64,000 bases of DNA from Candidatus Hydrogenedentota bacterium (GTDB lineage: Bacteria; Hydrogenedentota; Hydrogenedentia; Hydrogenedentales; SLHB01): contig JADLGB010000006.1 of the NCBI GenBank assembly GCA_020849535.1, positions 43,534 through 107,533 of the forward strand. Reading direction: 5' to 3'. The position numbers and the translations under genes are program-made. The notes beneath the pieces were generated by a model that was given only the letters and a program-made list of their open reading frames with translations, made no database searches and was not told the origin of the DNA. Shown here piece by piece: positions 34,367 through 54,565 of the stretch. The stretch's first letter is position 1; every line of letters begins with the position of its first letter.

Positions 34367-34466
34367 AGGGGCGGGGTCGAAGATGACCGGCGAGGCCGCC
34401 GGTCCCACACATGATTGTCCCTCACGTGATTGTCCCTCATGCAAGTATACACGGGGGAGGTGCAGC

Positions 34467-35357
<891 letters not shown>

Positions 35358-38029: not shown

Positions 38030-38722
38030 TTGAGCGTAAGGTTCAGACTGCGTATCGCCGCGCGATTGGCGCCGCTGGTTATACTGGGGTTCGGCGGCTG
38101 CGACGTAGACCAACTACCGCAGCCGCCTGCCGTCCCCGGGCAGACGCCTGAGACGAAAGAGGCGATCCAGGCGGAGATCGAGGCGGGCCTGCAACCGATA
38201 TACGATTTTGTGGGGACCCTCACGCGTCAAACGCCGCTACCTCCCGGATATGCGGAACAGTCGCTGGCATACGTGCAGGGGGTCGTATCGAAGTACTCCG
38301 GGACTCCCGCGGGCCAAGAGGCGTTGCACGGCGTGGAACGTCACCTCGAGGACGCGCTCAAGACAGCCCGCGAAGCCCAGAACGGCCTCGCCGTCCTGAT
38401 GATTTGCAGCTTGATCCGGACCATCGACCCCGATAATCCGCGTCTGGCGCGACACGAGGAATGGGCAACCATCGAAAAGAACCGGCCCGTGGTCATGCTG
38501 CGCGGGTGGTATGAGGACCGCGAGTCGAATCCGCCCACCGTGAATGCGTTCCTTGAGGTGTATCTGCCGGAGACCGGCGAGGTCCAGCATCTCCGGGTGC
38601 GCGAAGGCGAGGAGTTTCTGGGCCTGAAGTTCCACAAGATCATCGGGAAGCGCCGAGGCATGCGGATGGAGTATCTCAGAACAGGGGACCTCTTCGAGGT
38701 GTACATGCGCTCATGGCAATGA
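38030..38722 (+). CDS. Hypothetical lipoprotein, paralog 2.
   Basis: C-terminal …VYLPETGEVQHLRVREGEEFLGLKFHKIIG… is homologous to the preceding gene; GGC lipobox (ILGFGGC). Confidence 0.55.
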   Translation: MSVRFRLRIAARLAPLVILGFGGCDVDQLPQPPAVPGQTPETKEAIQAEIEAGLQPIYDFVGTLTRQTPLPPGYAEQSLAYVQGVVSKYSGTPAGQEALHGVERHLEDALKTAREAQNGLAVLMICSLIRTIDPDNPRLARHEEWATIEKNRPVVMLRGWYEDRESNPPTVNAFLEVYLPETGEVQHLRVREGEEFLGLKFHKIIGKRRGMRMEYLRTGDLFEVYMRSWQ

Positions 38723-40507: not shown

Positions 40508-40930
40508 ATGCTAAAGCAACGGCTGATTCACCCCGAAATCCTCGAAGCGCTGGCCGCGGCCGGCCACGGATCGCGCATTCTAATTACGGACGGTAACTAT
40601 CCCGGTAGTACGCGATTGGGCGAGAATGCGTCATTGATCTACCTGAACCTCGCTCCCGGACTTGTCAAAGTCACGGATGTGCTTTCGGCCATTCTTACGG
40701 CCATTCCCGTCGAGGATGCCGCGGTGATGGAACCGGAAGAGGGGCCGCAACCCGCCATCTTCGCGGAGTTCCAGCGCATGATGCCGTCGATCGAGCTGAC
40801 GCGCTACGGGCGTTATGAGTTCTATGAGGAGGCGTCCGGTCCGGACACCTGTCTTCAGGTTGTGACGGGGGAACAGCGCATTTACGCGAATTTGTTACTA
40901 ACGATAGGCGTGGTAATGCCCCAGGAATAG
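40508..40930 (+). CDS. RbsD/FucU family sugar mutarotase (D-ribose pyranase / L-fucose mutarotase-like).
   Basis: Conserved …AAGHGSRILITDGNYP… active-site region, ~140 aa. Confidence 0.7.
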   Translation: MLKQRLIHPEILEALAAAGHGSRILITDGNYPGSTRLGENASLIYLNLAPGLVKVTDVLSAILTAIPVEDAAVMEPEEGPQPAIFAEFQRMMPSIELTRYGRYEFYEEASGPDTCLQVVTGEQRIYANLLLTIGVVMPQE

Positions 40931-41161: not shown

Positions 41162-42949
41162 ATGGAGGTGGATTCGATGGCTGATGAAAAAGGCCGTAAC
41201 CAACAGGGCGATTCCGAAGATAAGGATGACGCCTTCGGTACTGCTGATTCGGGGGACAGCGATTTCGGAGCCTTGACTGGCGGCGGCGGACTGGGGAACC
41301 TTCCTCCGCTGAGCGACTTCGAGTCTTCCTCCGGGGGAGGATTCGATAGTGGATTGCCGCCACTGAGTTCAATCGATTCGGACTCCGGCTCGGGCCGGGG
41401 CTCGATTGGCGGGCTCCCCCCCATTAGCGACATACCCATTGAAACACCGCTGCCGACGGGCGGGGCCATCAAGCCGCCACCCGCAAGCTACGGCAGCACG
41501 CCGGTGTTTGGTACTCCTTCTTCCGACAGCGGGCTCGACACACCGTCGGGCACCGGGTTCCAAGATCTTTCCGCCGATAGCGACTTCACTCCGGAGACGC
41601 CCGAAGTAGCGCCTCCGGGCCCTGAGTCCGACATTGACACCCCCCTATTCGACAGTGCGTTTGGAGGAACAGGCGGATTCAGTGCCGCCGCGGACACATC
41701 GGCGCCCACGCAGGCGATGGAGACACCCATGTTCGGAGCGGATCGCGGAGCAGGTTTTGATGCGGATGCGTTTGGAAGCGGCATGGGTAGCGGCGGCGGT
41801 TTCGCCCAAGGCACGCCCGTACCGGATTTCGGCCCTGATACGGCGGCCCCGACGGCGATGACCCCGCCCCCGGCCCCAATGGCAGCGCGTGGCGCGGCCA
41901 AAGGCGGCGGCGGTGGCGGCAAGGGCGCTCTTGTGGGGTTGGTCGCCGTCATCGTTGGTCTGGTTGGCGGTTTGTTCGCCGCACCCTATGTGCCGGGCAT
42001 TCCGAATCCTGCCAAAGATGAAGTCGCCACGTTAACCACCGAATTGAACCAAGTGAAGAAGCAGAGGGACGAACTCCTCAATGCGAACCCTACGGGCGAG
42101 CCAATGTCGGCCGTAGATATCCAGACTCTGGTCGACCAGAAGACGCAACTCACCGCCGAGATCACCGACCTGACCGGAAAGCGGGATGCGGCCAACAGCG
42201 AGTACACAACGGTTTCGACGGAACTTGAAGCGGCGAAGGCGGACCTGGAGGAGACCAACGCGGCGTTCGTGCAGGCAAATGACGAGTTCGACCGCCTGAA
42301 GAACGATCACGCCATCACGCAGGCGCGCCAGGAAGGGCTCCTTCAAGAGACGGCGCGCCTCGAAACGCTCAATGGAAAACTTGAGGACGCCAATCTCCGC
42401 CGGATGCAGACGAAGGAAACGCTGGCGAGCAACATTGAGCGCTTGGCGATTCTCGTCAACGAGAGCAGCCCCTTGGTTCCCGAGAAGTATTCCAAGGACA
42501 GCCGCATCGCGGCCGTGGAATCCCTCAAGGAACGCGCCGCGGGGATGAACTGGGTGGACCCGGTGCTCCTGGATGAGTACACGACGCTGTACCTTCAGGA
42601 ACTCGAGATTGCGCGCGCGCGCGAGTACTTCTTCGCGAAGCTTCCCGTGACGGATCGCTTCGGCACGACGACGATGGGCTGGGCGGAATGCGTGATGAAC
42701 GGCAACTGGGGCGTGCTGTACCGCACGTTGGATGGCAAGCACATCGGCATCTACCAGAATGTGGAAGCCAGCGGCACGCCGAAGTACGCGCTCATCGACA
42801 TTAAGGATGAGAACGCGGCGAGCAACATCGAAGCCCAGATCTTCGCATCCCGCACGCCGGGCTTCGAGGAGAAACTGGAGCAGCTCGCTCAGAAGCAGCT
42901 TGTGACCGACGAGCGGACTCCGCTGCAGCGGAATTTCGAGTCGCTGTAG
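41162..42949 (+). CDS. Hypothetical single-pass membrane protein: acidic Gly/Ser/Asp/Pro-rich repetitive N-terminal region, TM helix, coiled-coil, C-terminal globular domain.
   Basis: Repeats (GGLGNLPPLSDFE / GFDSGLPPLSSIDSD / SIGGLPPISDIP). TM helix ALVGLVAVIVGLVGGLFAAP. Heptad-rich segment …LTTELNQVKKQRDELLN…. A palindromic terminator-like hairpin lies at ~42990-43020. Confidence 0.55.
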   Translation: MEVDSMADEKGRNQQGDSEDKDDAFGTADSGDSDFGALTGGGGLGNLPPLSDFESSSGGGFDSGLPPLSSIDSDSGSGRGSIGGLPPISDIPIETPLPTGGAIKPPPASYGSTPVFGTPSSDSGLDTPSGTGFQDLSADSDFTPETPEVAPPGPESDIDTPLFDSAFGGTGGFSAAADTSAPTQAMETPMFGADRGAGFDADAFGSGMGSGGGFAQGTPVPDFGPDTAAPTAMTPPPAPMAARGAAKGGGGGGKGALVGLVAVIVGLVGGLFAAPYVPGIPNPAKDEVATLTTELNQVKKQRDELLNANPTGEPMSAVDIQTLVDQKTQLTAEITDLTGKRDAANSEYTTVSTELEAAKADLEETNAAFVQANDEFDRLKNDHAITQARQEGLLQETARLETLNGKLEDANLRRMQTKETLASNIERLAILVNESSPLVPEKYSKDSRIAAVESLKERAAGMNWVDPVLLDEYTTLYLQELEIARAREYFFAKLPVTDRFGTTTMGWAECVMNGNWGVLYRTLDGKHIGIYQNVEASGTPKYALIDIKDENAASNIEAQIFASRTPGFEEKLEQLAQKQLVTDERTPLQRNFESL

Positions 42950-43104
42950 GCGGCTGAGAGCAAGTATTCGGGCCGCCACCTCGTGTGAGGTGGCGGCCTT
43001 TTTCATTGCTTGCGCGCTGCGCAAGAAGCATCGGATGGATGGGACGGATCGGTCGGATCGGACCGGTTCTTTCCTTGCAGGTGGTTGGCGCCTGGCCGGC
43101 GGGG

Positions 43105-44397
43105 TCACATCATATTTGAGACGACATGCACGGCGTGGCGGGGATTGCGGATGGCCCGCTTGATCATTTCGGGCCAGGTGTAGTTGCGGAACGCCTGGCG
43201 CGCGCTCAGCTTGAGGAAAAGCCGCTTCTGCAATTCCGGAGGCATGCTCTTGTTGCAGTTGAAGGTATCCGGATCGCCGGCCGTGAATTTGTCCCACGTG
43301 ATGCCGGACTCCAGGATTTCTTCGCGGAACTCATCAAACAGTGCGGTGCCCGGATAGGGCGTGAGGTAATGCAGGGACGCGAAGTCGATCTTCGCGTCGC
43401 GGATGAACCTACGGGTCAGCTCGACGTCTTCCACGGTTTCGCCGGGCGTGCCGATGATGAAACAGCCGCGCACGCGCAGGCCCGCCTCGTGGATGTTGCG
43501 GGCCGCCTCCATGTTCGCGTCGACGGTGGAGTGCTTGACCATGCGGTCCAGCATGCGCTGACTGCCGCTCTCAAAACCTATGGTGACCTGGACGCAGCCC
43601 GCCCGCTTCATCAGTTGGAGAACATCCGGGCGGATTCGGCGTGCGTGAATCTGGCACTCCCACTTGAGGTGGTGCAGGCCGCTCGCAATCATCGCTTCGC
43701 AGATTGCGCGAAAGCGATCGATGTCGGTGGCCATCAACTCGTCGAAGAAGGCGATGCTCTCGATGTGGTGGCGGTCGACGAGATAGCGAATCTCTTCCAC
43801 GACCCGCTCCGGGCTGTGAAAGCGGAGCTTTGTTTCGCGCTTGGAGTTGATGCAGTAATTGCACACGAAGGGACAACCGCGGCTGGTGATGATGCCGAGC
43901 GTCCGGTAGGAGTATCCCGCGATTTCCTCCCCCGCTTCCGCGTAAAGATCCAGGTTCAACTGGTCGCGGCGGGGCTCAGGAATGGCGTCCAACTCCGGGG
44001 GCACGCTCGGCTCGATGATACCTTCGAGCTTGCCTGAGCTGATCGCCTGTGGAAAAGACCATTCAGCCTCACCGCGTATTACGCAGTCCGCGTGCGCCAG
44101 GGCTTCCTCGGGCATGGCGGTCGGATGGGCGCCGCCCATGACCACGGTCAGGCCGCGCTCCTTCTTGATACGATCCGTGATCTCATACGCGCGCAGCGCA
44201 TACATAGTCATGAAGGAGATGCCCACGATGTCCGGGCGGAATTCGTCCAGGCCGGTCTCGACGTCCTGCCCCGCGATCTCGTCGATGATGCGCGTCTGGT
44301 GCCCGTCGCGTTGGAGGCACGCGGACAGATACGCAAGGCCGAGGTTTTCCTTCTTGAGCGATTTGGGCACGCTGGGGTTGATGAGGGCGATGCGCAT
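43105..44397 (-). CDS. B12-binding-domain radical SAM protein (class B radical SAM).
   Basis: Start re-assigned to MRIALINPS… (ATG 44397, TAATG overlap with upstream stop). N-terminal B12-binding region and CxxxCxxC cluster RGCPFVCNYC. Confidence 0.8.
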   Translation of the reverse strand: MRIALINPSVPKSLKKENLGLAYLSACLQRDGHQTRIIDEIAGQDVETGLDEFRPDIVGISFMTMYALRAYEITDRIKKERGLTVVMGGAHPTAMPEEALAHADCVIRGEAEWSFPQAISSGKLEGIIEPSVPPELDAIPEPRRDQLNLDLYAEAGEEIAGYSYRTLGIITSRGCPFVCNYCINSKRETKLRFHSPERVVEEIRYLVDRHHIESIAFFDELMATDIDRFRAICEAMIASGLHHLKWECQIHARRIRPDVLQLMKRAGCVQVTIGFESGSQRMLDRMVKHSTVDANMEAARNIHEAGLRVRGCFIIGTPGETVEDVELTRRFIRDAKIDFASLHYLTPYPGTALFDEFREEILESGITWDKFTAGDPDTFNCNKSMPPELQKRLFLKLSARQAFRNYTWPEMIKRAIRNPRHAVHVVSNMM

Positions 44398-45803
44398 TAG
44401 TGTGCCCCCACCACTTTGAAGAAGCGCTTGGCGCTGTACTTGCCGAGACGAACCATGCCGCCGATGCCTTCGCGCCGGAATGCGTTGCCGAAGTGATGCA
44501 TCAGGGTTGCGGGGCGGTGTGTGAGCATATGCCACTGCCAGCGGCTCCAGGCCAGGTCGTACATCTCCGCGATGTCCTGCGCGGTGTAGTCGGGATACGA
44601 GACAACGGCTTCGCCCGCAGGGTCGAACTGCATCCAGCTTTCTTTTGTGAGCCAGCCGTTTTGCTTCGCGCGCTCGTAGAATTGCGTGCCGGGATACGGC
44701 GTGGCGATCGCGAACTGCAGCGTGTGTGTGTTCAAGCCGATGGCGAAATCGATGGTTCGCAATGCGCTCTCGCGCGTTTCACCGGGCAGACCCACCAGGA
44801 AGTTGGCGTGAGTCTGGATGCCGAACTCGCGGCAATCGCGCACGGTGCGCACGACATCTTCCGGCTTCTGGTCCTTCGGAATCTGGCGAAGCACCTCGGG
44901 GTCTCCGCTCTCCACGCCGAACTTGATCGCCCTGCATCCCGCCTCGGCCATGGCCGCCACGAGATCAGTTTCAATCACCGCATTGCCCATGCAACTGAAC
45001 GGAATGCCGAAGCCGCGCGACTTGATCTCGTCGCACAACGCGAGAAGGTGCTTGCGGTTGATAGTGATGGTGTCGTCGTCGAAGTAGAACTCGTCGGGAT
45101 GATAGCGGCGGATCAACGCTTCGATCTCGTCGCACACGTGTTTCGGATCGCGGCGGCGGTAGTTCCGCTTCCCCGCGAATGGCGCGATGGTGCAGAATCC
45201 GCACTCGAGCGGACAACCGCGAGAGGTCAACACGGTCACGGATCGCCCCTTGCAGAAGGGGTCGTTGTACTTCTCCATCGCCATCAATTCCCACGCGGGA
45301 TGCGGAATTGCGTCCAGGTCCCGCACGAGGGGAACGAACTCGGTGGCCGGGGTGTGTTGAGTCGCAAGCCAGGGCTTGGGTTCCAGCGTGACAGCCTCGC
45401 TGATAACTTGATCGTATTCGCCGTGAATGACGCCTGCGAAACCAGCATCGATATGCTCTTGCGGTGTGGCCGTGGCGTGGGCGCCGCCCGCGATCGTGGG
45501 CTTGCCGAGCGCGCGCATGGTGGCGAGGTCGTCGGCCCAGCTCGGCGCGCTGGTCTCCATGAAGACCACGTCCGGCTGAAAGTCGGAGGCAATGTCCTTC
45601 AACTCGTCGAGTGATACTCCGGAGGCAATGCAATCCACGAAGCGGACATCATGCCCATCGGCAAACAGGCGCGCCGCGGCATACCCCAGTTGGAATGGGA
45701 AAGGATGGTAATCAATGCCGACGGCCTTGGGCTTGCGCTTATGCGGCCAGCGTGAGCCTGCGCGGCAAAACGCTCCCGGCGGATTGAGGAGCAGGATCTT
45801 CAT
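44397..45803 (-). CDS. B12-binding-domain radical SAM protein (paralog).
   Basis: N-terminus MKILLLNPPG…; CxxxCxxC reads RGCPLECGFC. Confidence 0.8.
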   Translation of the reverse strand: MKILLLNPPGAFCRAGSRWPHKRKPKAVGIDYHPFPFQLGYAAARLFADGHDVRFVDCIASGVSLDELKDIASDFQPDVVFMETSAPSWADDLATMRALGKPTIAGGAHATATPQEHIDAGFAGVIHGEYDQVISEAVTLEPKPWLATQHTPATEFVPLVRDLDAIPHPAWELMAMEKYNDPFCKGRSVTVLTSRGCPLECGFCTIAPFAGKRNYRRRDPKHVCDEIEALIRRYHPDEFYFDDDTITINRKHLLALCDEIKSRGFGIPFSCMGNAVIETDLVAAMAEAGCRAIKFGVESGDPEVLRQIPKDQKPEDVVRTVRDCREFGIQTHANFLVGLPGETRESALRTIDFAIGLNTHTLQFAIATPYPGTQFYERAKQNGWLTKESWMQFDPAGEAVVSYPDYTAQDIAEMYDLAWSRWQWHMLTHRPATLMHHFGNAFRREGIGGMVRLGKYSAKRFFKVVGAH

Positions 45804-45900
45804 GCGCTCCCCTCCTCTCCAAGTCTTCTTTTGCTGTCCCGCACCTTGGGGCCGCCAACAAAACCCACAGATACATCAAAATAGCTATAGGGTCGCAAGG

Positions 45901-46030
45901 TCCCCCTTTGAAGGGGGATCAAGGGGAATGTTCTTCTCTTTTCAATCCCAAAGCCTGAGTGCGCACCTGGAGTCACGGCGCACTCACATCCCCCTCGACG
46001 CTTCGCGTCTGCCCCCTTCAAAGGGGGAAG
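45901..46030. repeat. Hairpin-bounded ~130-bp element (CCCCCTTTGAAGGGGGATCAAGGGGAATGTTCTT … GCCCCCTTCAAAGGGGGAAG), family shared with 54409-54565.
   Basis: Direct comparison with 54409-54565, which carries the same terminal motifs in opposite orientation. Internal hairpin GAGTGCGCACC…GGCGCACTC. Confidence 0.7.
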
Positions 46031-46061
46031 CATTGCGCTTCGCGCTGAATGGGCAGATGGC

Positions 46062-47243
46062 CTAGATGAATTCAAACTGGGCATCGTGATCCACCATGGC
46101 TTCGTTCATGATCTGGTTGTATTTCACGAAGCGGCAGTCCAGGTTGTTGCACTCGTGCGGCTGGATGCCCTCGATCGCCTTCCAATGATCCTCGCTGTAC
46201 CAGAGGTCGCGCAGCGGCGTTTCAAAGCAGTTGCCGATCGTGTGCCGATCCTTGCGATGCCGGTAATAGCAGCAAAGATACACCTCGCCCATTGGATCGA
46301 CCGTAAGCTGCAATGGCGTCAACCAACAGTGCGTGGTCATGTTGATCTTCTCGGTGCCGCCCACGATGGCCATGCCCGGATAACGTTGGCGGAGTCCCGT
46401 CAACTCGCGGTTGACTGCATCGCCCTGCTCCGGGGAGAGTTCGGATGCGACAAGGCGGGCCGCCTTGAACTGGATCGAGTCCGCGCCCAGGCGGAGCGCG
46501 AGTTCCACGCAACCTTCCAGATCGTGCACGTTGTTGGCGTCCAGCACGACCTTGATGCTGATGCGCACGCGCGTCTTGCGCTCATTGCGCAGGGCAATCA
46601 TCGCAGCAATGTTCTCGCACACGGCCTCGAATCGCGCCTCCGGCGTGCGAGGGCGTTTGACCGCGTTGGCGGTCTCCGGTGTGGCGCCATCGAACCCCAC
46701 GCGGACGTAGCTGGCGCAATCTACGAGGGCCGACGCGAGTTCCCCTTTGAGCTTGGTGCCGTTTGTCAGGAGGCCGACGCTGGTGCCTTTCGCATTCATA
46801 TCGCGAATCAACTCGGCCAGGTCGGGATGCAGCGTCGGCTCGCCGCCGCCGCAGAATTCGACACCGCGCACGCCGAGGTCGCGCAAATCATCGATGAGCT
46901 TGAACAGCCGCTCGCGGGACATGACCCGCGTCAGGTTCTTGTTCGTGTTCTCCGCGTTGTATTCGCACCACAGGCAATCCTGATTGCACACGTAGGTTGG
47001 ATAAACGATGGCGGTGCGTGGCGCGGGCATTTTGCGATCGAGGATCTGTCGCGCTTCGTGCCAGTGCGTGAGGATGCGGGTCTGAAGCGTGTCGAACACT
47101 TCGAGCGATTCGCCCGCGTGCCCAGAGTCGGTCTGTGCGGCGTGACGCCCATTGCCCTTGGGACCAGCACTCTCGCCCACCGCATGCGCCGCCGCACCAC
47201 CCATCTTGCCTTTCCTATCCGTCATACGCGCTCTTAGCTCCAT
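46062..47243 (-). CDS. Radical SAM protein with C-terminal SPASM-like Cys-rich domain. Start uncertain (could be 30-210 nt downstream of track start).
   Basis: CxxxCxxC reads YVCNQDCLWC. C-terminal Cys cluster …CWLTPL…VYLCCYY…IGNCF…PHECNNLDCRF. Confidence 0.75.
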   Translation of the reverse strand: MELRARMTDRKGKMGGAAAHAVGESAGPKGNGRHAAQTDSGHAGESLEVFDTLQTRILTHWHEARQILDRKMPAPRTAIVYPTYVCNQDCLWCEYNAENTNKNLTRVMSRERLFKLIDDLRDLGVRGVEFCGGGEPTLHPDLAELIRDMNAKGTSVGLLTNGTKLKGELASALVDCASYVRVGFDGATPETANAVKRPRTPEARFEAVCENIAAMIALRNERKTRVRISIKVVLDANNVHDLEGCVELALRLGADSIQFKAARLVASELSPEQGDAVNRELTGLRQRYPGMAIVGGTEKINMTTHCWLTPLQLTVDPMGEVYLCCYYRHRKDRHTIGNCFETPLRDLWYSEDHWKAIEGIQPHECNNLDCRFVKYNQIMNEAMVDHDAQFEFI

Positions 47244-47832
47244 TGGGTGGCGGACCGGCGGGCATCACTTGAAGTTGTGCCACGGCGTCCGATTCGCCTG
47301 TCGGCCGCATCGTTCCGGATGACTCCATCGTGAGACGCATCCACATGTGCCGGTTGAAGTTCTTGGTTTGGGGTTTCCGGTAATTCTTGATCACGAACTT
47401 GAGGATGCGGATCTTCGACTCGCGCGTCAGGCGCACCCGGCCGTTGTCGGTGACGTATAACTCGATGAACTTGTCGTCATCGGTGACGCGGAACTTGCGC
47501 CGTATCTGCGCCTTGCCGCGCTGCGACATGGCGCTCAACACATGCGTTCCCTTGGGAAGGGTAAGCTGGTACTGCCCATCGTCACTGTCCTTACCCAAGT
47601 AGAATGACCGGCTGATCACGGGCTTGTCGTCCACAGCCACCTGGATATCCACGGGCGCTTCCGACTTTGCCTGGTCATCCACAAAAACCTTGAGGAATAC
47701 GTCTCCCTTTTTCGCGCCGGCTTTTCCCGAGGCGCCAACAATGGGCAATTCGCTTCGGGACTCGGTCGTTTCGCAGCCCGTCAGCAGAATCGCGAGCGCG
47801 AGCGAAGCCGCTATCAGCGGTGCGTAACGCAC
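47215..47832 (-). CDS. Lipoprotein with PEGA-like beta-sandwich domain, paralog 1.
   Basis: Lipobox LLTGC. Block …IQVAVDDKPVISRSFYLGKDSDDGQYQLTLPKGTHVLSAMSQRGKAQIRRKF… is homologous to the next gene. Confidence 0.6.
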   Translation of the reverse strand: MRYAPLIAASLALAILLTGCETTESRSELPIVGASGKAGAKKGDVFLKVFVDDQAKSEAPVDIQVAVDDKPVISRSFYLGKDSDDGQYQLTLPKGTHVLSAMSQRGKAQIRRKFRVTDDDKFIELYVTDNGRVRLTRESKIRILKFVIKNYRKPQTKNFNRHMWMRLTMESSGTMRPTGESDAVAQLQVMPAGPPPNGAKSAYDG

Positions 47833-48279
47833 TTACTGAATTCCTCCCCCGGGAGCCGCGTAGATGGGCTCATCCGACACCTTAAACGTCCAGCCGCCTT
47901 CGCCCGCTTTTGAGGACGGCGTGAAATACAGCGCGCCGAAGGTGCGCTCTTTCATCTCGAAACTGCGCTCGATCTCGGCGCTGCCCTTGTGCGTGACGGC
48001 CTTGAGCGTGTGCGTGCCGGGCGCAAGAGTGAACCGGAACTGATCGTCGTAATGCCCCTTCGAGCTGCTGAAGTTGCGGTCCACGGCGGGCCGCCCATCG
48101 ATCCACACCTTGACGTCCATGGGCACCACCGCGTAGCGGTAGCTATCCATGTACACGTGGAGATGGAAATTGCCATTGGGATCTTCGAGCGCGTCCGCGC
48201 CCTTGGAGGTCGCACAACCGAGCGTGGCGAGAAGCAGGAGGGAGCCGAGGGCAAGCCGAGCGATGTGTTTCCGGTACAT
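47833..48279 (-). CDS. Lipoprotein with PEGA-like domain, paralog 2.
   Basis: Start MYRKHIARLALGSLLLLATLGC (ATG 48279, TGATG overlap with upstream stop). Block …VKVWIDGRPAVDRNFSSSKGHYDDQFRFTLAPGTHTLKAVTHKGSAEIERSF…. Confidence 0.6.
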   Translation of the reverse strand: MYRKHIARLALGSLLLLATLGCATSKGADALEDPNGNFHLHVYMDSYRYAVVPMDVKVWIDGRPAVDRNFSSSKGHYDDQFRFTLAPGTHTLKAVTHKGSAEIERSFEMKERTFGALYFTPSSKAGEGGWTFKVSDEPIYAAPGGGIQ

Positions 48280-49739
48280 CAGTTGTTCCCCACGAAGCCT
48301 GTAAAGGCCCTTTCCTTGTTCCGAAAATAGCTGACGAAACTCTTCACCCCGTGAAGTTTTGCACGAAGGTCGGGCACATTCTGGATATTTCGGAGCATGC
48401 GCCACATCTGGCTTGGACGCAAGTAGAAGTCGCGCAGGCCGCGGTCGATGAACGCGTTGATCTGTTCCACGGTGAGTCCCGGCAACTCCTGCGTGGAGCG
48501 CTGCTCGAAGTTCTCATCCACCCAGTCGCGCCACGCCGTCTGCTTGAGGTACCCATTCTGCTTGGCCCAATTATAGTAGGCCGTGCCGGGATACGCGACC
48601 ACCGCCGTAAACTGGGCGGTATCGATGGGCAACCGCTTGGAAAGGTCGAGCGTCTTTTGCGCGGTTTCTTCCGTTTCGCCCGGACCGCCAAACATGAAGC
48701 ACCCGTGCACGCGGATACCGGCCTTCGCGGCGTTTTGCGCGAAGCGGTGCATCTGCGCGATGGTGGCGCCCTTCTTGACGTTGTTGAGGACCTGCTGGTC
48801 GCCGAACTCGAAACCGACGCACAACCAGCGGCACCCGGAGCGCTTCATCAACTTGAGGACCTCGAGGTCGTTGACGTCCACGCGCGCGTTCGCGCTCCAG
48901 GAAATGCCCACCTTGCGCCGGATCATCGCTTCGCACAACTCCACTAGGCGATCCTGCGAGCTGCGCATGGTCAAGGTGTCGTCTTCGAACATAATCTCTT
49001 TCAGATTCGGAAAGAGCTTGATGTCATATTCAATTTCATCGACGACGTTCTCGACGCTGCGGACGCGGTACTGGTGGCCGTTCATCACTTGGGGCAACTG
49101 GCAGAAGGTGCACTTCGCGCGGCAGCCGCGCCCACTGATCAGCGTCAGGAAGGGGAACAACTTCCCGAAATCGTGGTAGTCATAGATGTCGATGTGCTTC
49201 CACGCGGGAAACGCCAACTCGTCGAGGTTCTCGATGTAGGGCCGGTCCGCATTGCGCACAAAGGCGCCGCCATCCATCCACGCAATGCCTTGGCAGTCGC
49301 GTAGCGGAACGCCGTTGGCGAGATCGCGCAATGTGTAGTCATATTCAGCGATCGCCACGGCGTCCACAGCCCCGTCCGCGCGATTCAGCGTGTCCTCGGG
49401 CTCGGCGGTGACGTGCGGCCCGATCATGACATGGAGACCGCCAAGGCCCTCCTTGCACAGACGCGCCGATTCAATATCCGCGTCGATGGACGGTGTGGAC
49501 GCCTGATAGACGACCATGTCCGGCTTGAAGGTTTTGAGTTTCTCCAACGCGGCCGGCGTGGGCATGTTCTTGGCCTGCGCGTCGAGGAAGAAGATCTCGT
49601 GTCCGGCCGCTTCCACGACGCCCGCGGCGATGCAGAAGTAGTCGGGATGCCGCTGGACCCGCCCGCGCGACCGCGCGAACCAACGCGCCGACTTCGTGAA
49701 GTCCGTTCCGAACATGGGATTCAGAAAGGCTACGCGCAC
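48279..49739 (-). CDS. B12-binding-domain radical SAM protein (third paralog).
   Basis: N-terminus MRVAFLNPMFG…; CxxxCxxC reads RGCRAKCTFC. Confidence 0.8.
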   Translation of the reverse strand: MRVAFLNPMFGTDFTKSARWFARSRGRVQRHPDYFCIAAGVVEAAGHEIFFLDAQAKNMPTPAALEKLKTFKPDMVVYQASTPSIDADIESARLCKEGLGGLHVMIGPHVTAEPEDTLNRADGAVDAVAIAEYDYTLRDLANGVPLRDCQGIAWMDGGAFVRNADRPYIENLDELAFPAWKHIDIYDYHDFGKLFPFLTLISGRGCRAKCTFCQLPQVMNGHQYRVRSVENVVDEIEYDIKLFPNLKEIMFEDDTLTMRSSQDRLVELCEAMIRRKVGISWSANARVDVNDLEVLKLMKRSGCRWLCVGFEFGDQQVLNNVKKGATIAQMHRFAQNAAKAGIRVHGCFMFGGPGETEETAQKTLDLSKRLPIDTAQFTAVVAYPGTAYYNWAKQNGYLKQTAWRDWVDENFEQRSTQELPGLTVEQINAFIDRGLRDFYLRPSQMWRMLRNIQNVPDLRAKLHGVKSFVSYFRNKERAFTGFVGNN

Positions 49740-49790: not shown

Positions 49791-50231
49791 CTACTGCTCC
49801 TTCCACAGGTTTCCGAGATACGCGGCACGGCCGGGAAAGCCCGCCTGGATCGCGGGCAACAGGGCCGGGCGCGTGTCGGGATAGAAGTGAAGGGATGGCA
49901 CTTCCCTCAAGGGTACAAAGCGGACTTCCTCAAGACGGTGATCGTTCCCACAGCGAAGCTCACCCGATAGGACCTCCGCGGTGAAGTAGAGGTTGATCAC
50001 GTGGCGTGAGCCATTGGGGTCGATGGTGTCGTTCGCCATGACCAGATCCTTGACCCGAATCTCCAGGTTTGCCTCTTCCATCAGTTCGCGGCGCAAGGCC
50101 GCTTCCATGGACTCGCCGAACTCGAGTCCGCCGCCCGGTAACAGCCAGTATGAGCGGTCCGCCTTGGAATGCCGCACCAACAAGAGCCGGTCATCCTCGA
50201 CGATGATCGCCGCCATCCGTACCCGCGGCAT
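49791..50231 (-). CDS. NUDIX hydrolase.
   Basis: Nudix box GGGLEFGESMEAALRRELMEEANLEI. Confidence 0.7.
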   Translation of the reverse strand: MPRVRMAAIIVEDDRLLLVRHSKADRSYWLLPGGGLEFGESMEAALRRELMEEANLEIRVKDLVMANDTIDPNGSRHVINLYFTAEVLSGELRCGNDHRLEEVRFVPLREVPSLHFYPDTRPALLPAIQAGFPGRAAYLGNLWKEQ

Positions 50232-50298
50232 CGCGGCGGCCACCTTTTCGGGTATACCCGCGGGCGCCGTGGCCAGAACATCGATTTCACCGTTCGGC

Positions 50299-51633
50299 CT
50301 ATGCATGCTGCACACACGCCGCGTCGAGCGATGGCGCTACGGGTTCGCTGCGCTCCACATACGCTTCCATCTGGCCAGCGAGGGCCGCGTCGATCTCCGC
50401 GTCCAACAAAATGCTGTTATCCTCGTAACACCGGTCGAGGACCCGCCCTTCCTGGTAGACGCGGCCCGCAATACCCGCCTCGCACTGCGGGATGCGCAAA
50501 CGGACTCGAACCCGCTGCACAGACACTACGTCTTCGATTCGCTTGAGGAGTTTTTCGATGCCTTCCCCGGTCTTCGCGGAAACCGCGATGGGGTCCCCCG
50601 GCCCGTGCAACTGGGTCCGCACGAAGGCGGGATCCGCCACATCGATTTTGTTGAAGACGCGGATGATGGGCTTGTTCTCGACCTTGATCTCGTCGAGCAC
50701 GGCATTCACCGCGGCGATGTGCTCCGCGACCATTTCATGCGAGACATCCGCCACGAGCAGGATGAGGTCCGCTTCGTTGACCTCTTCCAGGGTAGCGCGG
50801 AACGCGGCCACCAGTGAGTGCGGCAGCTTGCGGATGAAACCCACGGTGTCCGTGATGATGACTTGTCCGCCGTTGGGCAGCGGACAGCGCCGGCTGCACG
50901 GGTCCAGGGTGGCGAAGAGCTTGTCTTCCACGTGGGTGTGGGACTCGGTCAGGGCATTCAAGAGCGAGGATTTTCCCGCATTGGTGTATCCCACCAGGGC
51001 GACCGTCCCCACGCTGCCTTCGGTGCGGCACTTGCGCTGCAAGCGCCGGTGCTTCCGGATCTCGTCGAGGTCTGCCTTCAGACGATTGATGCGCTTGCGA
51101 ATGACGCGGCGATCCACTTCGAGCTTCTGTTCGCCGGGACCGCGCGTTCCGATGCCCGCGCCCAGTCGCATCATCTCGGCGCCGCGCCCGGTCAGGCGGG
51201 GCAGCGCGTACTGCAACTGCGCCAACTCGACCTGGTGCTTACCTTCATTGGTCTGCGCGCGCTGCGCGAAGATGTCGAGAATGAGTTGCGTGCGGTCGAG
51301 GACCTTCACGCCCAGCGCTTCCTGCAACTTGGACCCTTGCGTGGGTGTGAGGTCGGAATCCACCAGCACGACGTCCGCTTCGAGTTCTTCGCAGGTGGCT
51401 CGTAGTTCCTTCACCTTCCCCGAGCCGATCAGGGTGGCAGGACATACGTCCGGGCGGTACTGCACGACAGTGCACAGCACCTCCGCGCCGGCCGTCCACG
51501 CGAGACGCCGCATCTCCTCCAGAGACTCTTCGATCTCGTCATCCGAATCGCTGGGAAGGGCCAGTCTCACCAGGATGGCAGACTCCACCACGGGAGGTCG
51601 CTCCAAATTTATCACTTTGTCAGGCTTGCGCAT
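50299..51633 (-). CDS. hflX: GTPase HflX.
   Basis: HflX N-domain plus G-domain: G1 GYTNAGKSSLLNALT, G3 DTVGFI, G4 NKID. Confidence 0.85.
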   Translation of the reverse strand: MRKPDKVINLERPPVVESAILVRLALPSDSDDEIEESLEEMRRLAWTAGAEVLCTVVQYRPDVCPATLIGSGKVKELRATCEELEADVVLVDSDLTPTQGSKLQEALGVKVLDRTQLILDIFAQRAQTNEGKHQVELAQLQYALPRLTGRGAEMMRLGAGIGTRGPGEQKLEVDRRVIRKRINRLKADLDEIRKHRRLQRKCRTEGSVGTVALVGYTNAGKSSLLNALTESHTHVEDKLFATLDPCSRRCPLPNGGQVIITDTVGFIRKLPHSLVAAFRATLEEVNEADLILLVADVSHEMVAEHIAAVNAVLDEIKVENKPIIRVFNKIDVADPAFVRTQLHGPGDPIAVSAKTGEGIEKLLKRIEDVVSVQRVRVRLRIPQCEAGIAGRVYQEGRVLDRCYEDNSILLDAEIDAALAGQMEAYVERSEPVAPSLDAACVQHA

Positions 51634-51899
51634 TCAAGGCTCCGGCACTCGGGCCGATGTGCTTCGGGGCGGGACCTAACCCCATGCAGTGCGATGGCGA
51701 GTTCGGATTATACCGTATATTGTGTTCCAGGTCCACAGAATCAGGACACATCCCTGCACTTACGTGCACCGTTCAGGGCACGCCATATTCCCAAATGACT
51801 ATACCATGGATAACACGCACTGACAAGCCATCGGGAAACGTAAATGGTTGCGATAGAACTGTTTTATGCGTACCATGCCCTTCAAGAAGGAGACCCATC

Positions 51900-52973
51900 A
51901 TGTTGTATCTGTCGCGTACCGCCGCAGCAGCGGCAATCGTTGGAAGCATCCTAATGTTCTCTCAATCACAGGCACAACAGCCCTCGGACTTTACGGCCCA
52001 AGTCACCGCCCAGCAGGGCCGGGTGGACTTCGTGTTCGAGGATGAGCGGCCCTTCGCGCAGTGCCATGCCTCGACGATCGTCGAAAGCGAGGATGGCACC
52101 CTGCTCTGCGCCTGGTTTGCCGGTACCGAAGAAGGCGAGCTGGATGTCGGCATCTGGCTATCGGCATTTCGTGACGGCACCTGGAGCGTGCCCCAACGAG
52201 TCGCCAAGGTGAACGAGACCCCGCACTGGAATCCCGTGCTGTTCCGCGATCCGGCGCGCGGCACCTACCTCTTCTTCAAGGTGGGCCGCGAGATCCCGTT
52301 CTGGGAAACGAATTGGATGGAAACCAAGGACAATGGCCGCACCTGGAGCACTCCAGTAGAGCTGGTCGCCCACGACCAGGGTGGACGCGGCCCCGTCAAG
52401 AACAAGCCGGTCGTCCTGTCGGACGGTACGTGGCTGGCGGGTGCCTCAACGGAGTACAAGCAGTGGGATGCGTTTGCCGACCTGTCAAAGGACGGCGGCG
52501 TGACGTGGGAACGCACCCCTGACTTCGCGATGGACCGGGCGGTCTTCGTGGGGCGCGGGGCGATTCAACCGACGGTCTGGGAATCCGCGCCGGGGAAGGT
52601 GCACGCCCTGCTCCGAACCACCGCCGGCAAGATTGGGCGCACGGATTCGGAAGACGGCGGGCACACGTGGTCGCCCATGTACCTGACCGACCTGCCGAAC
52701 AACAACAGCGGCATCGACCTCGTGAAGTTGGAGGACGGGCGCCTGCTGCTCGTCTACAATCCCGTCGGTCTCAAACAGGGGCGTTCGCCGCTTGACTTGG
52801 CACTATCCGCTGATAACGGGAAGACTTGGAGTACCGTTGCTCACCTCGAGGACGAGCCGCAGATGGAATTCTCCTATCCCGCAATCGTGGGTACGAGCAA
52901 GGGGATCGCGATTTCTTACACGTGGAAGAGGCAGCGGATTCGCTGCTGGCAGGTGCCGCTGGCGGCGCTGTAG
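51900..52973 (+). CDS. Secreted BNR/Asp-box repeat glycosidase (sialidase/exo-alpha-sialidase-like beta-propeller).
   Basis: Start re-assigned (AAGGAG RBS; signal peptide MLYLSRTAAAAAIVGSILMFSQSQA). Four Asp-boxes: TKDNGRTWS, SKDGGVTWE, SEDGGHTWS, SADNGKTWS. Confidence 0.7.
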   Translation: MLYLSRTAAAAAIVGSILMFSQSQAQQPSDFTAQVTAQQGRVDFVFEDERPFAQCHASTIVESEDGTLLCAWFAGTEEGELDVGIWLSAFRDGTWSVPQRVAKVNETPHWNPVLFRDPARGTYLFFKVGREIPFWETNWMETKDNGRTWSTPVELVAHDQGGRGPVKNKPVVLSDGTWLAGASTEYKQWDAFADLSKDGGVTWERTPDFAMDRAVFVGRGAIQPTVWESAPGKVHALLRTTAGKIGRTDSEDGGHTWSPMYLTDLPNNNSGIDLVKLEDGRLLLVYNPVGLKQGRSPLDLALSADNGKTWSTVAHLEDEPQMEFSYPAIVGTSKGIAISYTWKRQRIRCWQVPLAAL

Positions 52974-54408: not shown

Positions 54409-54565
54409 ACCCCCTTCAAAGGGGGAATTCAGAGGCCCTTCGGGCTGTGTATTGTCTGCACGAGAGGCCTTCATGGTACCCTCAAGACATTTCATAACTC
54501 ATACACATAGTGTTGTATAATTCCCCCTTTGAAGGGGGATTAAGGGGGATGTTCTTAAAACCAGG
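54409..54565. repeat. Second copy (inverted orientation) of the CCCCCTTTGAAGGGGG hairpin-bounded element.
   Basis: CCCCCTTCAAAGGGGGAATTC … TTCCCCCTTTGAAGGGGGATTAAGGGGGATGTTCTT; between convergent anmK and the DUF1559 gene. Confidence 0.7.

What the first reader, a model, noticed from the sequence alone, without database searches (positions are those of the whole stretch)
43105..49739. Translationally coupled cluster of three B12-binding radical SAM enzymes, one SPASM radical SAM enzyme and two PEGA-like lipoproteins
Six co-directional genes carry start/stop overlaps (TGATG at 48279, adjacent 47833/47832, 29-nt overlap at 47215-47243, TAATG at 44397). They encode three paralogous class-B (cobalamin-dependent) radical SAM enzymes (CxxxCxxC: GCRAKCTFC, GCPLECGFC, GCPFVCNYC), one radical SAM enzyme with a Cys-rich SPASM-type C-terminus (VCNQDCLWC … CC…C…C..C), and two paralogous ~150-200-aa lipoproteins with PEGA-like beta-sandwich domains. 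Class-B radical SAM enzymes catalyse unactivated-carbon methylations and ring formations on lipids, cofactors and peptides. SPASM enzymes usually act on peptide or protein substrates. The co-encoded lipoproteins could be the protein substrates (post-translational C-methylation or crosslinking of envelope lipoproteins), or the cluster could modify membrane lipids. A hairpin-bounded repeat element (45901-46030) splits the cluster, and hflX plus a NUDIX gene lie immediately upstream in the same orientation. I know of no characterised system with this composition.
Basis: partly seen in the sequence, partly recalled or inferred. Interest (0 to 1): 0.8.

Follow-up and report, generated by a model that had tools for sequence, protein, structure and literature searches.

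The report
Four-enzyme radical SAM glycan-tailoring operon
This is a real, co-transcribed set of four uncharacterised radical-SAM enzymes from an uncultured Hydrogenedentota bacterium. Related genomes point to remodelling of a cell-envelope sugar or glycolipid, and the two lipoprotein genes in the middle are a recent lineage-specific insertion, not conserved substrates.

Summary
On the minus strand, hflX, NUDIX, a B12 radical-SAM gene (rSAM1), two paralogous lipoprotein genes, a SPASM radical-SAM gene and two more B12 radical-SAM genes (rSAM2, rSAM3) lie tightly packed.

Comparison of about 160 related loci shows that the cluster is modular:
- NUDIX-rSAM1 is one module. rSAM1 is HpnJ-like but scores below the HpnJ cutoff.
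- SPASM-rSAM2-rSAM3 is a second module. It also occurs in Fibrobacterota, without rSAM1, NUDIX or lipoproteins.
- The lipoproteins occur only in the subclade closest to the window. Other Hydrogenedentota have the same four enzymes with gaps of 24-134 nt at that junction.

Outside this phylum both modules sit inside glycosyltransferase-rich clusters (GT2, GT4, PssD/PssE, PMT_2 GT-C, Wzx or flippase-like proteins, a sugar aminotransferase, an epimerase). The SPASM enzyme is closest, by sequence and by fold, to the nucleoside-sugar decarboxylase BlsE. It is not close to the tetraether synthase Tes.

Best reading (about 0.5): a radical-SAM cassette that tailors a sugar of an envelope glycoconjugate. 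No member of these families has been characterised. Interest is moderate.

The parts
50299..51633 (-). hflX GTPase. Probable first gene of the transcription unit. It is a syntenic neighbour within the phylum and probably not functionally part of the cassette.
   Evidence: TIGR03156 462.8 bits. The only sigma-70-like sites in 42.8-52 kb on this strand lie just upstream, at 51826-51707. hflX is next to NUDIX-rSAM1 in only some Hydrogenedentota loci and never outside the phylum.
49791..50315 (-). NUDIX hydrolase, the upstream partner of rSAM1 (module 1). Substrate unknown.
   Evidence: PF00293 73.1 bits. It lies directly upstream of rSAM1 in 34 of 52 Hydrogenedentota-type loci that have upstream sequence, including loci where hflX is absent. 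PDB and NCBIfam hits are generic MutT/ADP-ribose types.
48279..49739 (-). rSAM1: class-B (B12-binding) radical SAM enzyme, HpnJ-like, the core of module 1.
   Evidence: Pfam. Full-length match to the HpnJ model at 361.5 bits, below the 577.6 cutoff. It is 65-86% identical across Hydrogenedentota and 47-58% in Omnitrophota, Gemmatimonadota, Acidobacteriota and others. Best solved relatives are AprD4 (6e-19), the MCR glutamine methylase (9ccb; named MgmA) and OxsB.
47833..48279 (-). lipo1: 148-aa lipoprotein with a beta-sandwich domain. Lineage-specific insertion.
   Evidence: The ATG at 48279 overlaps the rSAM1 stop. Lipobox LATLGC. No Pfam or NCBIfam hit. Present only in the closest clade, and 37-80% identical where the enzymes are 66-90% identical.
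47215..47832 (-). lipo2: 205-aa lipoprotein, a paralogue of lipo1. Lineage-specific insertion.
   Evidence: Identical to NCBI hypothetical protein P0001. Only 7 cluster representatives at E<=1e-30 among 1.84 billion. AF2 model with pLDDT 70, all-beta over residues 42-151. Weak transthyretin/TssJ-like fold matches.
46062..47243 (-). SPASM-type radical SAM enzyme (start codon ambiguous: 47243, 47225 or 47204). First gene of module 2.
45901..46028 (.). Intergenic element bounded by two mutually complementary GC-rich hairpins (REP/MITE-like). An insertion, not a precursor-peptide gene.
   Evidence: The same motif lies in the same gap in L001 and L009. The gap is only 5-37 nt in L010-L013. No Rfam match.
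44397..45803 (-). rSAM2: class-B radical SAM enzyme, HpnJ-like at a lower score. Part of module 2.
   Evidence: Pfam. HpnJ model 237.9 bits. Orthologues at 44-45% identity in Fibrobacterota/Chitinivibrionales loci, next to a flippase-like LPG_synthase_TM gene.
43105..44397 (-). rSAM3: class-B radical SAM enzyme, 430 aa from the ATG that overlaps the rSAM2 stop. Part of module 2.
   Evidence: Pfam. TAATG junction. Orthologues at 41-43% identity in Fibrobacterota loci. Always follows rSAM2 in Hydrogenedentota.
51657..52973 (+). BNR_2 (sialidase-like beta-propeller) gene, divergent from the operon. A recurrent neighbour within the phylum.
   Evidence: PF13088 255 bits. Found next to NUDIX-rSAM1 in many Hydrogenedentota loci, including those that lack module 2.

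Best explanation
The region is a two-module operon of four cytoplasmic radical-SAM enzymes. They most likely remodel a sugar of a cell-envelope glycoconjugate. The sugar could be a glycolipid head group, or it could be carried on a nucleotide or on polyprenyl phosphate.

- Module 1 is NUDIX plus rSAM1. rSAM1 belongs to a sister family of HpnJ, the enzyme thought to contract the glucosamine ring of a hopanoid glycolipid.
- Module 2 is the SPASM enzyme plus rSAM2 and rSAM3.

Inferred mechanism: each enzyme cleaves SAM to a 5'-deoxyadenosyl radical, which abstracts a hydrogen from an unactivated sugar carbon. The B12 enzymes would then rearrange or C-methylate the sugar. The SPASM enzyme, which is BlsE/DesII-like, would oxidise, decarboxylate or deaminate it. 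The product would be flipped and attached outside the cytoplasm by glycosyltransferases encoded elsewhere in this genome.

The two lipoprotein genes and the hairpin element are later insertions into the operon in one Hydrogenedentota subclade.

Shown here: gene content, modularity, distribution and genomic contexts. Inferred: the substrate class and the chemistry.
For: **Modularity**
- The SPASM-rSAM2-rSAM3 trio occurs without rSAM1 in L099, L101-L103, L108, L123 and L150, and in Fibrobacterota loci L089-L092.
- NUDIX-rSAM1 occurs without the trio in 20 of 38 loci that have enough downstream sequence.

**rSAM1 homologues outside the phylum lie in glycan clusters**
- An MftF/EpsD-like GT2 is present in 12 of 31 loci, often adjacent, with a PpgS/AglJ-like polyprenyl-P-sugar synthase in 7.
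- L065 also has an NAD-dependent epimerase/dehydratase, a GT4 and DUF2304. L072 has two GT4s and a nucleotide pyrophosphatase. L078 has PssD/PssE and a DUF362-type Fe-S protein.

**SPASM-family homologues lie in the same kinds of cluster**
- L089 and L091: PssD/PssE, two GT2s, three methyltransferases, DUF362+ferredoxin of the same Npun_F2552 family as in L078, and a flippase-like membrane protein.
- L120: GT4, DegT sugar aminotransferase, GT2 and a Wzx flippase directly upstream of B12-rSAM/SPASM/B12-rSAM.
- L128, L119 and L093: PMT_2/TMEM260 GT-C enzymes. L114: a 234-aa GT2 between a B12-rSAM and the SPASM gene.
- In Hydrogenedentota-like loci L093, L094 and L099, a GT2 lies divergently upstream of the SPASM gene. 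It is 50% identical to the Fibrobacterota GT2.

**Closest solved relatives act on sugars**
- rSAM1: AprD4 and OxsB.
- The best family model for rSAM1 and rSAM2 is HpnJ.
Against: - No glycosyltransferase, flippase or sugar-nucleotide gene lies in this window or next to most Hydrogenedentota copies of the operon. The sugar assignment therefore rests on contexts in other phyla, at 38-58% protein identity.
- HpnJ itself has never been studied biochemically (review PMC13459092), so analogy to it is weak.
- Glycolipid head-group genes can sit beside tail-modifying genes, so the context does not strictly separate sugar from acyl-chain chemistry.
- My idea that the neighbouring TPR membrane protein (38713-40443) is a GT-C transferase found no support.
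Confidence: 0.5

Rival explanations
1. The cassette tailors lipid chains. It would be a bacterial counterpart of the archaeal gms-grs-gmm cluster, in which a SPASM/Twitch enzyme bridges alkyl chains and B12 radical-SAM enzymes cyclise or methylate them. Here it would act on membrane-spanning or branched lipids.
For: - The composition (one SPASM plus two or three B12 radical-SAM enzymes) parallels Gms+Grs+Gmm, which cluster together in Thermococcus (PMC11214058; review).
- rSAM3's second-best NCBIfam hit is the ladderane-type 'lipid biosynthesis B12-binding/radical SAM protein' (124 bits).
- Flippase-like LPG_synthase_TM genes accompany the trio in Fibrobacterota.
Against: - No tes, mss or ether-lipid gene is nearby in the loci whose neighbours were annotated.
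- The partners are Wzx, a DegT aminotransferase, an epimerase/dehydratase and GT4/GT2/PssDE, which is typical glycan machinery.
- Neither paper searched on GDGT-type genes in bacteria (Gms homologues, PMC11214058; Tes homologues, PMC11868695) mentions Hydrogenedentota.
Confidence: 0.12
2. The cassette makes a soluble small molecule or cofactor from a nucleotide or nucleotide sugar, as in blasticidin, oxetanocin or aminoglycoside chemistry. NUDIX would process the nucleotide.
For: - NUDIX is tightly linked to rSAM1 (34 of 52 loci).
- The best solved relatives, BlsE, AprD4, OxsB and DesII, all come from nucleoside or aminoglycoside natural-product pathways.
- The archaeal-labelled locus L072 has a nucleotide pyrophosphatase and a thymidylate-kinase-like gene downstream of the rSAM1 homologue.
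Against: - rSAM1 is 65-86% identical across a whole phylum and its synteny is stable. This looks like housekeeping envelope biology, not patchy secondary metabolism.
- No transporter, resistance, NRPS or PKS genes are nearby in the loci whose neighbours were annotated.
- The recurrent partners elsewhere are membrane-associated polyprenyl-P GT2, GT-C and flippase genes.
Confidence: 0.15
3. One reading: the radical-SAM enzymes post-translationally modify the two co-encoded lipoproteins, or an unseen peptide, by C-methylation or crosslinking.
For: - Within the closest clade, one or two lipoprotein genes always lie between rSAM1 and the SPASM gene, with overlapping or abutting stop and start codons.
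- SPASM enzymes often act on peptides. SkfB and SuiB are the second and third fold hits.
Against: - The lipoproteins are absent from most loci that carry the four enzymes, and from all loci outside the subclade.
- They evolve much faster than the enzymes. In L015 lipo1 is 37% identical while the enzymes are 66-81%.
- In L020 an unrelated MNT-type nucleotidyltransferase ORF occupies the same junction, so this junction accepts insertions.
- The SPASM enzyme has only about 60 residues before the cluster motif, 45 of them modelled as disordered. That leaves no room for an RRE domain.
- There is no conserved small ORF. The SPASM/rSAM2 gap is 5-37 nt in L010-L013.
- Sec-exported lipoproteins would have to be modified before export, which would be unusual (inference).
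Confidence: 0.05
4. The region is not one functional unit. Independent genes (hflX, NUDIX, rSAM1, lipoproteins, the trio) are adjacent by phylum-specific synteny and have unrelated functions.
For: - Each module occurs alone in many genomes.
- hflX, BNR_2, RbsD/FucU and the coiled-coil gene are syntenic only within the phylum.
Against: - rSAM1 and the SPASM gene are adjacent in lineages that differ in everything else. L006/L023 pairs rSAM1 with a SPASM gene only 42% identical, and L030 has rSAM1 plus SPASM only.
- Both modules independently associate with the same accessory families elsewhere: MftF-like GT2, PssD/E and DUF362/Npun_F2552.
- The gene junctions overlap.
Confidence: 0.1

Closest known systems
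HpnI-HpnJ-HpnK(-HpnL) branch of hopanoid biosynthesis (bacteriohopanetetrol cyclitol ether formation)
   Same: - rSAM1 and rSAM2 give full-length matches to the HpnJ model with the same B12-binding plus radical-SAM architecture.
- In other phyla the rSAM1 and SPASM families sit beside GT2 enzymes, some with a weak GT21/HpnI-type signal, and beside flippase-like LPG_synthase_TM proteins of the HpnL type.
- The theme is shared: a glycosylated lipid whose sugar is then rearranged by a radical enzyme.
   Different: - The scores (361.5 and 237.9 bits) are far below the HpnJ cutoff of 577.6.
- No shc, hpnH, hpnI or hpnK was found in the window ORFs that were scanned.
- There are four radical-SAM enzymes, including a SPASM enzyme, instead of one.
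- NUDIX is the partner, not a deacetylase.
Archaeal GDGT-tailoring cluster gms-grs-gmm (SPASM/Twitch Gms plus B12 radical-SAM GrsA/B and Gmm)
   Same: One SPASM-type enzyme plus several class-B radical-SAM enzymes encoded together (PMC11214058; PMC13459092).
   Different: - The SPASM enzyme here resembles BlsE, SkfB, SuiB and DesII more than Tes.
- The contexts are glycan clusters, not tes or mss clusters.
- Orthology of rSAM2 and rSAM3 to Grs and Gmm could not be tested, because no reference sequences were available in these tools.
Sugar-modifying radical SAM enzymes of nucleoside and aminoglycoside pathways (BlsE, DesII, AprD4, OxsB)
   Same: These are the best solved-structure relatives of the SPASM enzyme (BlsE, DesII) and of rSAM1 (AprD4, OxsB). 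All abstract hydrogen from a sugar carbon.
   Different: - Identities are low, 17-21% in the structural alignments.
- Those enzymes are single tailoring steps in actinomycete antibiotic clusters. This cassette is conserved across an uncultured phylum and, elsewhere, is embedded in envelope-glycan clusters.
Three-component polyprenyl-phosphate-sugar modification systems (ArnC/ArnEF/ArnT; PpgS/Rv3789/Rv3779; GtrB/GtrA/GtrX)
   Same: Related loci combine a small GT2 polyprenyl-P-sugar synthase (PpgS/AglJ-like), a flippase-like protein or DUF2304, and a PMT_2 GT-C transferase with the radical-SAM genes. This suggests the sugar is modified while on the lipid carrier, as ArnD does.
   Different: - None of these three components is identifiable in the window itself.
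- No known system of this kind uses radical-SAM enzymes for the on-carrier modification step (my knowledge; nothing found).

Membership tests
Class-B (cobalamin-dependent) radical SAM enzymes | N-terminal B12-binding Rossmann-type domain (PF02310) followed by a radical-SAM core with CxxxCxxC | tested here: met
   All three enzymes pass both Pfam gathering scores, and the motifs are present in the sequence.
Class-B (cobalamin-dependent) radical SAM enzymes | The enzyme actually binds and uses cobalamin | not testable with these tools
   This needs purified protein. No cobalamin riboswitch was found in 40-55 kb.
HpnJ (TIGR03471, hopanoid cyclitol-ether radical SAM) | Score at or above the curated equivalog cutoff of 577.6 bits | tested here: not met
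   rSAM1 361.5 bits, rSAM2 237.9 bits, rSAM3 115.3 bits.
HpnJ (TIGR03471, hopanoid cyclitol-ether radical SAM) | Occurs with shc/hpnH and next to hpnI/hpnK | tested here: not met
   The Pfam/NCBIfam scans covered 39 window ORFs, about two thirds of the roughly 58 candidate ORFs listed. None is one of these genes. The rest of the genome could not be searched.
SPASM/Twitch radical SAM enzymes | C-terminal Cys-rich auxiliary-cluster domain (PF13186) | tested here: met
   35 bits against a cutoff of 21.5. The fold matches BlsE, SkfB, SuiB and anSME.
SPASM/Twitch radical SAM enzymes | Full seven-Cys set for two auxiliary [4Fe-4S] clusters | tested here: inconclusive
   Only five C-terminal Cys are invariant across 24 homologues: C293, C311, C312, C352 and C357. 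One auxiliary cluster (Twitch-like) or two cannot be told apart from sequence.
RiPP maturation systems (radical SAM plus precursor peptide) | RRE/PqqD-like peptide-recognition domain, or a conserved adjacent precursor ORF | tested here: not met
   N-terminal residues 1-45 are modelled as disordered, with only two short helices before the core. There is no conserved small ORF, and the intergenic gaps are 5-134 nt in relatives.
Tes/Gms tetraether-type SPASM lipid synthases | Specific similarity to Tes (PDB 7TOL/7TOM) beyond the generic radical-SAM core | tested here: not met
PEGA domain (PF08308) proteins | Match to the PEGA profile | tested here: not met
   Neither lipoprotein has any Pfam hit at E<=0.01. 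A distant 1226-aa relative of the shared domain carries CarboxypepD_reg repeats and a sub-threshold PEGA signal.
Bacterial lipoproteins | Signal peptide ending in a lipobox with an invariant Cys | tested here: met
   The sequences are ...LLLLATLGC|ATS and ...LAILLTGC|ETT. G19 and C20 are invariant in 16 homologues. Lipidation itself was not tested.
Polyprenyl-P-sugar three-component glycosylation systems | GT2 synthase, flippase and GT-C transferase encoded with the modifying enzymes | tested here: not met
   Absent from the window. The TPR membrane protein at 38713-40443 shows no PMT_2 or TMEM260 similarity. The three components are present only in related loci of other lineages.

The most novel reading that the evidence does not exclude
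The SPASM-rSAM2-rSAM3 trio, with rSAM1, is the bacterial equivalent of the archaeal Gms/Grs/Gmm set. It would bridge, cyclise and C-methylate the alkyl chains of membrane-spanning (brGDGT-type) glycolipids in uncultured anaerobic phyla. That would supply the missing enzymes for brGDGT ring formation and methylation, and it would identify Hydrogenedentota and Fibrobacterota as source organisms. The glycosyltransferase-rich contexts would then reflect head-group synthesis of the same lipids.
Probability: 0.08. Interest if true: 0.85.

Novelty: new variant of a known kind. Interest (0 to 1): 0.45.

Why it matters
Radical-SAM chemistry on sugars is known from a handful of antibiotic pathways and from two poorly understood lipid head-group enzymes, HpnJ and calditol synthase. 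A cassette of three or four such enzymes is conserved across Hydrogenedentota. Its modules recur inside polysaccharide or glycolipid clusters of Fibrobacterota, Omnitrophota, Acidobacteriota and others. This implies a multi-step radical remodelling of an envelope sugar, for example a carbocyclic, branched or C-methylated sugar, that has not been described chemically.

It would give enzymologists several new class-B and SPASM activities with a defined genomic handle. It would also give microbial ecologists a possible envelope biomarker for phyla that have no cultured members.

If the less likely lipid-chain reading were true instead, it would bear on the unresolved biosynthesis of branched tetraether lipids that are used as palaeothermometers.

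Tried and rejected
- **Exact look-up of rSAM2 in the assembly index:** not on record.
- **Lipoproteins as conserved partners:** rejected by the distribution.
- **Intergenic 258-nt region as a precursor peptide or riboswitch:** rejected. It is a hairpin-bounded repeat with a second copy at 54.4 kb. It is present only in the three closest genomes and has no Rfam hit.
- **Neighbouring TPR membrane protein (38713-40443) as a TMTC/PMT-like GT-C transferase:** Pfam finds only TPR repeats. BLASTP against PMT_2/TMEM260 proteins from related loci and a PDB search give nothing. I dropped it as evidence.
- **True HpnJ or hopanoid pathway:** rejected on score and on the absence of hpn or shc genes among the ORFs scanned.
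- **Tes/Gms identity of the SPASM enzyme:** rejected on sequence and fold rank.
- **NUDIX substrate from PDB or NCBIfam relatives:** uninformative. Only generic MutT/ADP-ribose-type hits.
- **Literature searches:** searches for Hydrogenedentes plus radical SAM, for Npun_F2552, for DUF362 plus B12 radical SAM plus glycosyltransferase, and for polyprenyl phosphate plus radical SAM all returned nothing. A search for exopolysaccharide plus B12-binding radical SAM returned only irrelevant papers.
- **Lipoprotein fold search:** only generic beta-sandwich matches.

Full report
**Source and anatomy**

The window comes from a Candidatus Hydrogenedentes/Hydrogenedentota MAG. The 205-aa lipoprotein is 100% identical to an NCBI hypothetical protein on a 168-kb contig of such a MAG. 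GC content is about 61% throughout.

On the minus strand the order is as follows:

| Gene | Coordinates |
|---|---|
| hflX | 50299-51633 |
| NUDIX | 49791-50315 |
| rSAM1 | 48279-49739 |
| lipo1 | 47833-48279 |
| lipo2 | 47215-47832 |
| SPASM radical-SAM gene | 46062 to about 47243 |
| 258-nt gap | |
| rSAM2 | 44397-45803 |
| rSAM3 | 43105-44397 |

A BNR_2 gene diverges upstream (51657-52973). A convergent coiled-coil gene ends at 42949, followed by a strong hairpin at 42970-42999.

- The stop/start overlaps are as described. The exception is the lipo2/SPASM junction, whose start codon is ambiguous.
- The only promoter-like sites on this strand lie upstream of hflX (weak evidence).

**The cluster is modular**

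I collected three sets of related loci:
- 8 loci by exact-protein look-ups;
- 80 loci from one representative genome per species, using an rSAM1 alignment;
- 77 metagenome loci using a SPASM alignment, plus 3 Fibrobacterota loci.

tblastn with the window proteins shows four arrangements.

- **(A) The window's closest clade** (rSAM1 >=80% identical: L001-L003, L009-L015, L106, L115, L124). The order is (hflX)-NUDIX-rSAM1, then one or two lipoproteins, then SPASM-rSAM2-rSAM3.
- **(B) Other Hydrogenedentota** (rSAM1 64-72% identical; 80-84% in the lipoprotein-bearing clade A). The order is NUDIX-rSAM1-SPASM-rSAM2-rSAM3 with no lipoprotein gene and only 24-134 nt between rSAM1 and SPASM (L022, L024, L032, L041, L047, L051, L053, L097, L100, L105, L110, L111). 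L020 instead has an unrelated MNT-type nucleotidyltransferase ORF at that junction.
- **(C) NUDIX-rSAM1 alone**, often with the divergent BNR_2 gene (L005, L008, L034, L037 and others).
- **(D) The SPASM-rSAM2-rSAM3 trio alone** (L099, L101-L103, L108, L123, L150).

Counts:
- NUDIX lies upstream in 34 of 52 loci.
- The SPASM gene lies downstream in 21 of 43 loci.
- All four enzymes are present in 14 of 38 loci.
- Lipoproteins are present in 10 of 43 loci, all in clade A.

In Fibrobacterota/Chitinivibrionales the trio is conserved without rSAM1, NUDIX or lipoproteins. There the SPASM enzyme is 46-50% identical, rSAM3 41-43% and rSAM2 44-45%.

**The lipoproteins**

- They are genuine lipobox proteins and paralogues.
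- The family proper is tiny: 7 representatives at E<=1e-30 among 1.84 billion.
- They evolve much faster than the enzymes.
- They have no Pfam hit.
- The model is a generic transthyretin/TssJ-like beta-sandwich.
- A long tail of small proteins shares only the ~80-residue sandwich domain.
- They are therefore a lineage-specific insertion into a pre-existing enzyme operon.
- Because they stay inside the operon throughout clade A, a local functional link cannot be excluded. One possibility is that they are acceptors of the product.

**The hairpin element**

- Two 17-nt mutually complementary GC-rich palindromes lie 94 nt apart.
- A second pair lies at 54410-54538 with unrelated internal sequence.
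- The motif occupies the same SPASM/rSAM2 gap in L001 and L009. In L010-L013 the gap is 5-37 nt.
- It has no Rfam match.
- It is a REP/MITE-like insertion, not a precursor gene.

**What the enzymes resemble**

- rSAM1 gives a full-length match to the HpnJ model at 361.5 bits, against a cutoff of 577.6. rSAM2 scores 237.9 bits. rSAM3 is non-specific, with BchE, ladderane-type and PhpK models all at about 120-140 bits.
- The solved relatives of rSAM1 are AprD4, the MCR glutamine methylase and OxsB.
- Five C-terminal Cys are invariant.
- The N-terminus before the core is short and disordered, so there is no RRE domain.

**Context outside the phylum**

rSAM1 homologues at 47-58% identity, in bins labelled Omnitrophota, Gemmatimonadota, Acidobacteriota, Eisenbacteria, Chloroflexota, Desulfococcus and archaeal, are flanked by the following:
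- an MftF/EpsD-like GT2 in 12 of 31 loci;
- a PpgS/AglJ-like polyprenyl-P-sugar synthase in 7 of 31 loci;
- further B12 radical-SAM paralogues;
- PssD/PssE, GT4s, an epimerase/dehydratase, DUF2304, a nucleotide pyrophosphatase and a DUF362-type Fe-S protein.

SPASM-family homologues at 38-50% identity are flanked by the same kinds of gene:
- PssD/PssE, GT2s, class-I methyltransferases, and DUF362+ferredoxin of the same Npun_F2552 family;
- a flippase-like LPG_synthase_TM protein and a hexapeptide acyltransferase;
- a Wzx flippase, a DegT aminotransferase and GT4s (L120);
- PMT_2/TMEM260 GT-C transferases (L093, L119, L128) and a small GT2 (L114).

Within Hydrogenedentota-like loci L093, L094 and L099, a GT2 lies divergently beside the SPASM gene.

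The two modules thus independently keep the same company: machinery for glycans or glycolipids assembled on lipid carriers.

**Interpretation**

The best-supported reading, with confidence about 0.5, is a radical-SAM cassette that remodels a sugar of an envelope glycoconjugate. HpnJ-type rearrangement or B12-dependent C-methylation by the class-B enzymes, and BlsE/DesII-type oxidation, decarboxylation or deamination by the SPASM enzyme, are inferences from homology. None is shown.

Main weaknesses:
- No glycosyltransferase lies in this window.
- My lead that the adjacent TPR membrane protein is a GT-C enzyme failed.
- HpnJ itself is biochemically uncharacterised.

Rivals:
- A Gms/Grs/Gmm-like lipid-chain cassette (0.12). 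The composition is attractive, but the SPASM enzyme is not Tes-like and the contexts are glycan clusters.
- A nucleotide-derived soluble product (0.15).
- Lipoprotein or peptide modification (0.05).
- Mere synteny of unrelated genes (0.10).

**Novelty and interest**

No member of these four families has been characterised, and the full-text searches found no description of this gene set. The enzyme superfamilies and the general idea of radical tailoring of glycolipid or glycan sugars are known. I therefore rate this a new variant of a known kind, with moderate interest (0.45).

Noticed in passing
window 54410-54538: Second copy of the paired-hairpin element (CCCCCTTTGAAGGGGG and its complement, about 97 nt apart), in the gap after the anmK-like gene. 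Only the terminal palindromes are shared with the copy at 45901-46028. The interiors do not align.
   Followed up: partly
L020 1655-2002: In a relative that lacks the lipoproteins, a 115-aa MNT-type nucleotidyltransferase ORF (probable antitoxin-like gene) sits at exactly the rSAM1/SPASM junction where the window has its lipoprotein genes. This junction seems to tolerate insertions.
   Followed up: partly
window 41162-42949 (+) and 38713-40443 (+), 40508-40930 (+): Three genes stay syntenic downstream of rSAM3 across many Hydrogenedentota loci: a 595-aa protein with a low-complexity Gly/Ser/Asp N-terminus, a membrane span and a long coiled coil; a 576-aa multi-span membrane protein with C-terminal TPRs (motif FVWDD near the N-terminus); and an RbsD/FucU sugar mutarotase. 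Their relation to the cassette is unknown.
   Followed up: partly
L093 3242-7276 and L094 7123-10563: Directly downstream of a SPASM homologue lies a 1146-1344-aa fusion of a PMT_2 (GT-C glycosyltransferase) membrane domain with a sulfatase/phosphodiesterase-type domain. This architecture is reminiscent of enzymes that decorate envelope glycans or lipids.
   Followed up: no
L121 8970-11178; L120 14070-14885: Some distant clusters carry two SPASM-type radical-SAM genes, in tandem in L121, besides two B12 radical-SAM genes. Cassette size therefore varies between lineages.
   Followed up: no
L016, L019-L021, L025, L028, L036, L054 (record titles): Several contigs are labelled Nitrospiraceae, Nitrospirales or Bathyarchaeia. 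They carry rSAM1 at 68-76% identity, and four of them (L019, L028, L036, L054) also carry Hydrogenedentota-type hflX-NUDIX-rSAM1 synteny. These are probably mis-binned or mislabelled MAG contigs.
   Followed up: no
window 34383-35357 and 54617-55369: Two genes carry DUF1559 (SBP_bac_10), and the first also has a prepilin-type N-terminal methylation motif. (From my own knowledge, not tested here: this family is much expanded in Planctomycetota-like genomes.) They are unrelated to the finding.
   Followed up: no
L006/L023 11518-12561 and 16183-17697: In one Hydrogenedentota lineage rSAM1 (71% identical) is followed by a much more divergent SPASM gene (42% identical) and a 422-aa protein with no Pfam hit. 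A B12 radical-SAM gene with a DUF4080 domain lies 4 kb downstream. This is a different version of the cassette.
   Followed up: no
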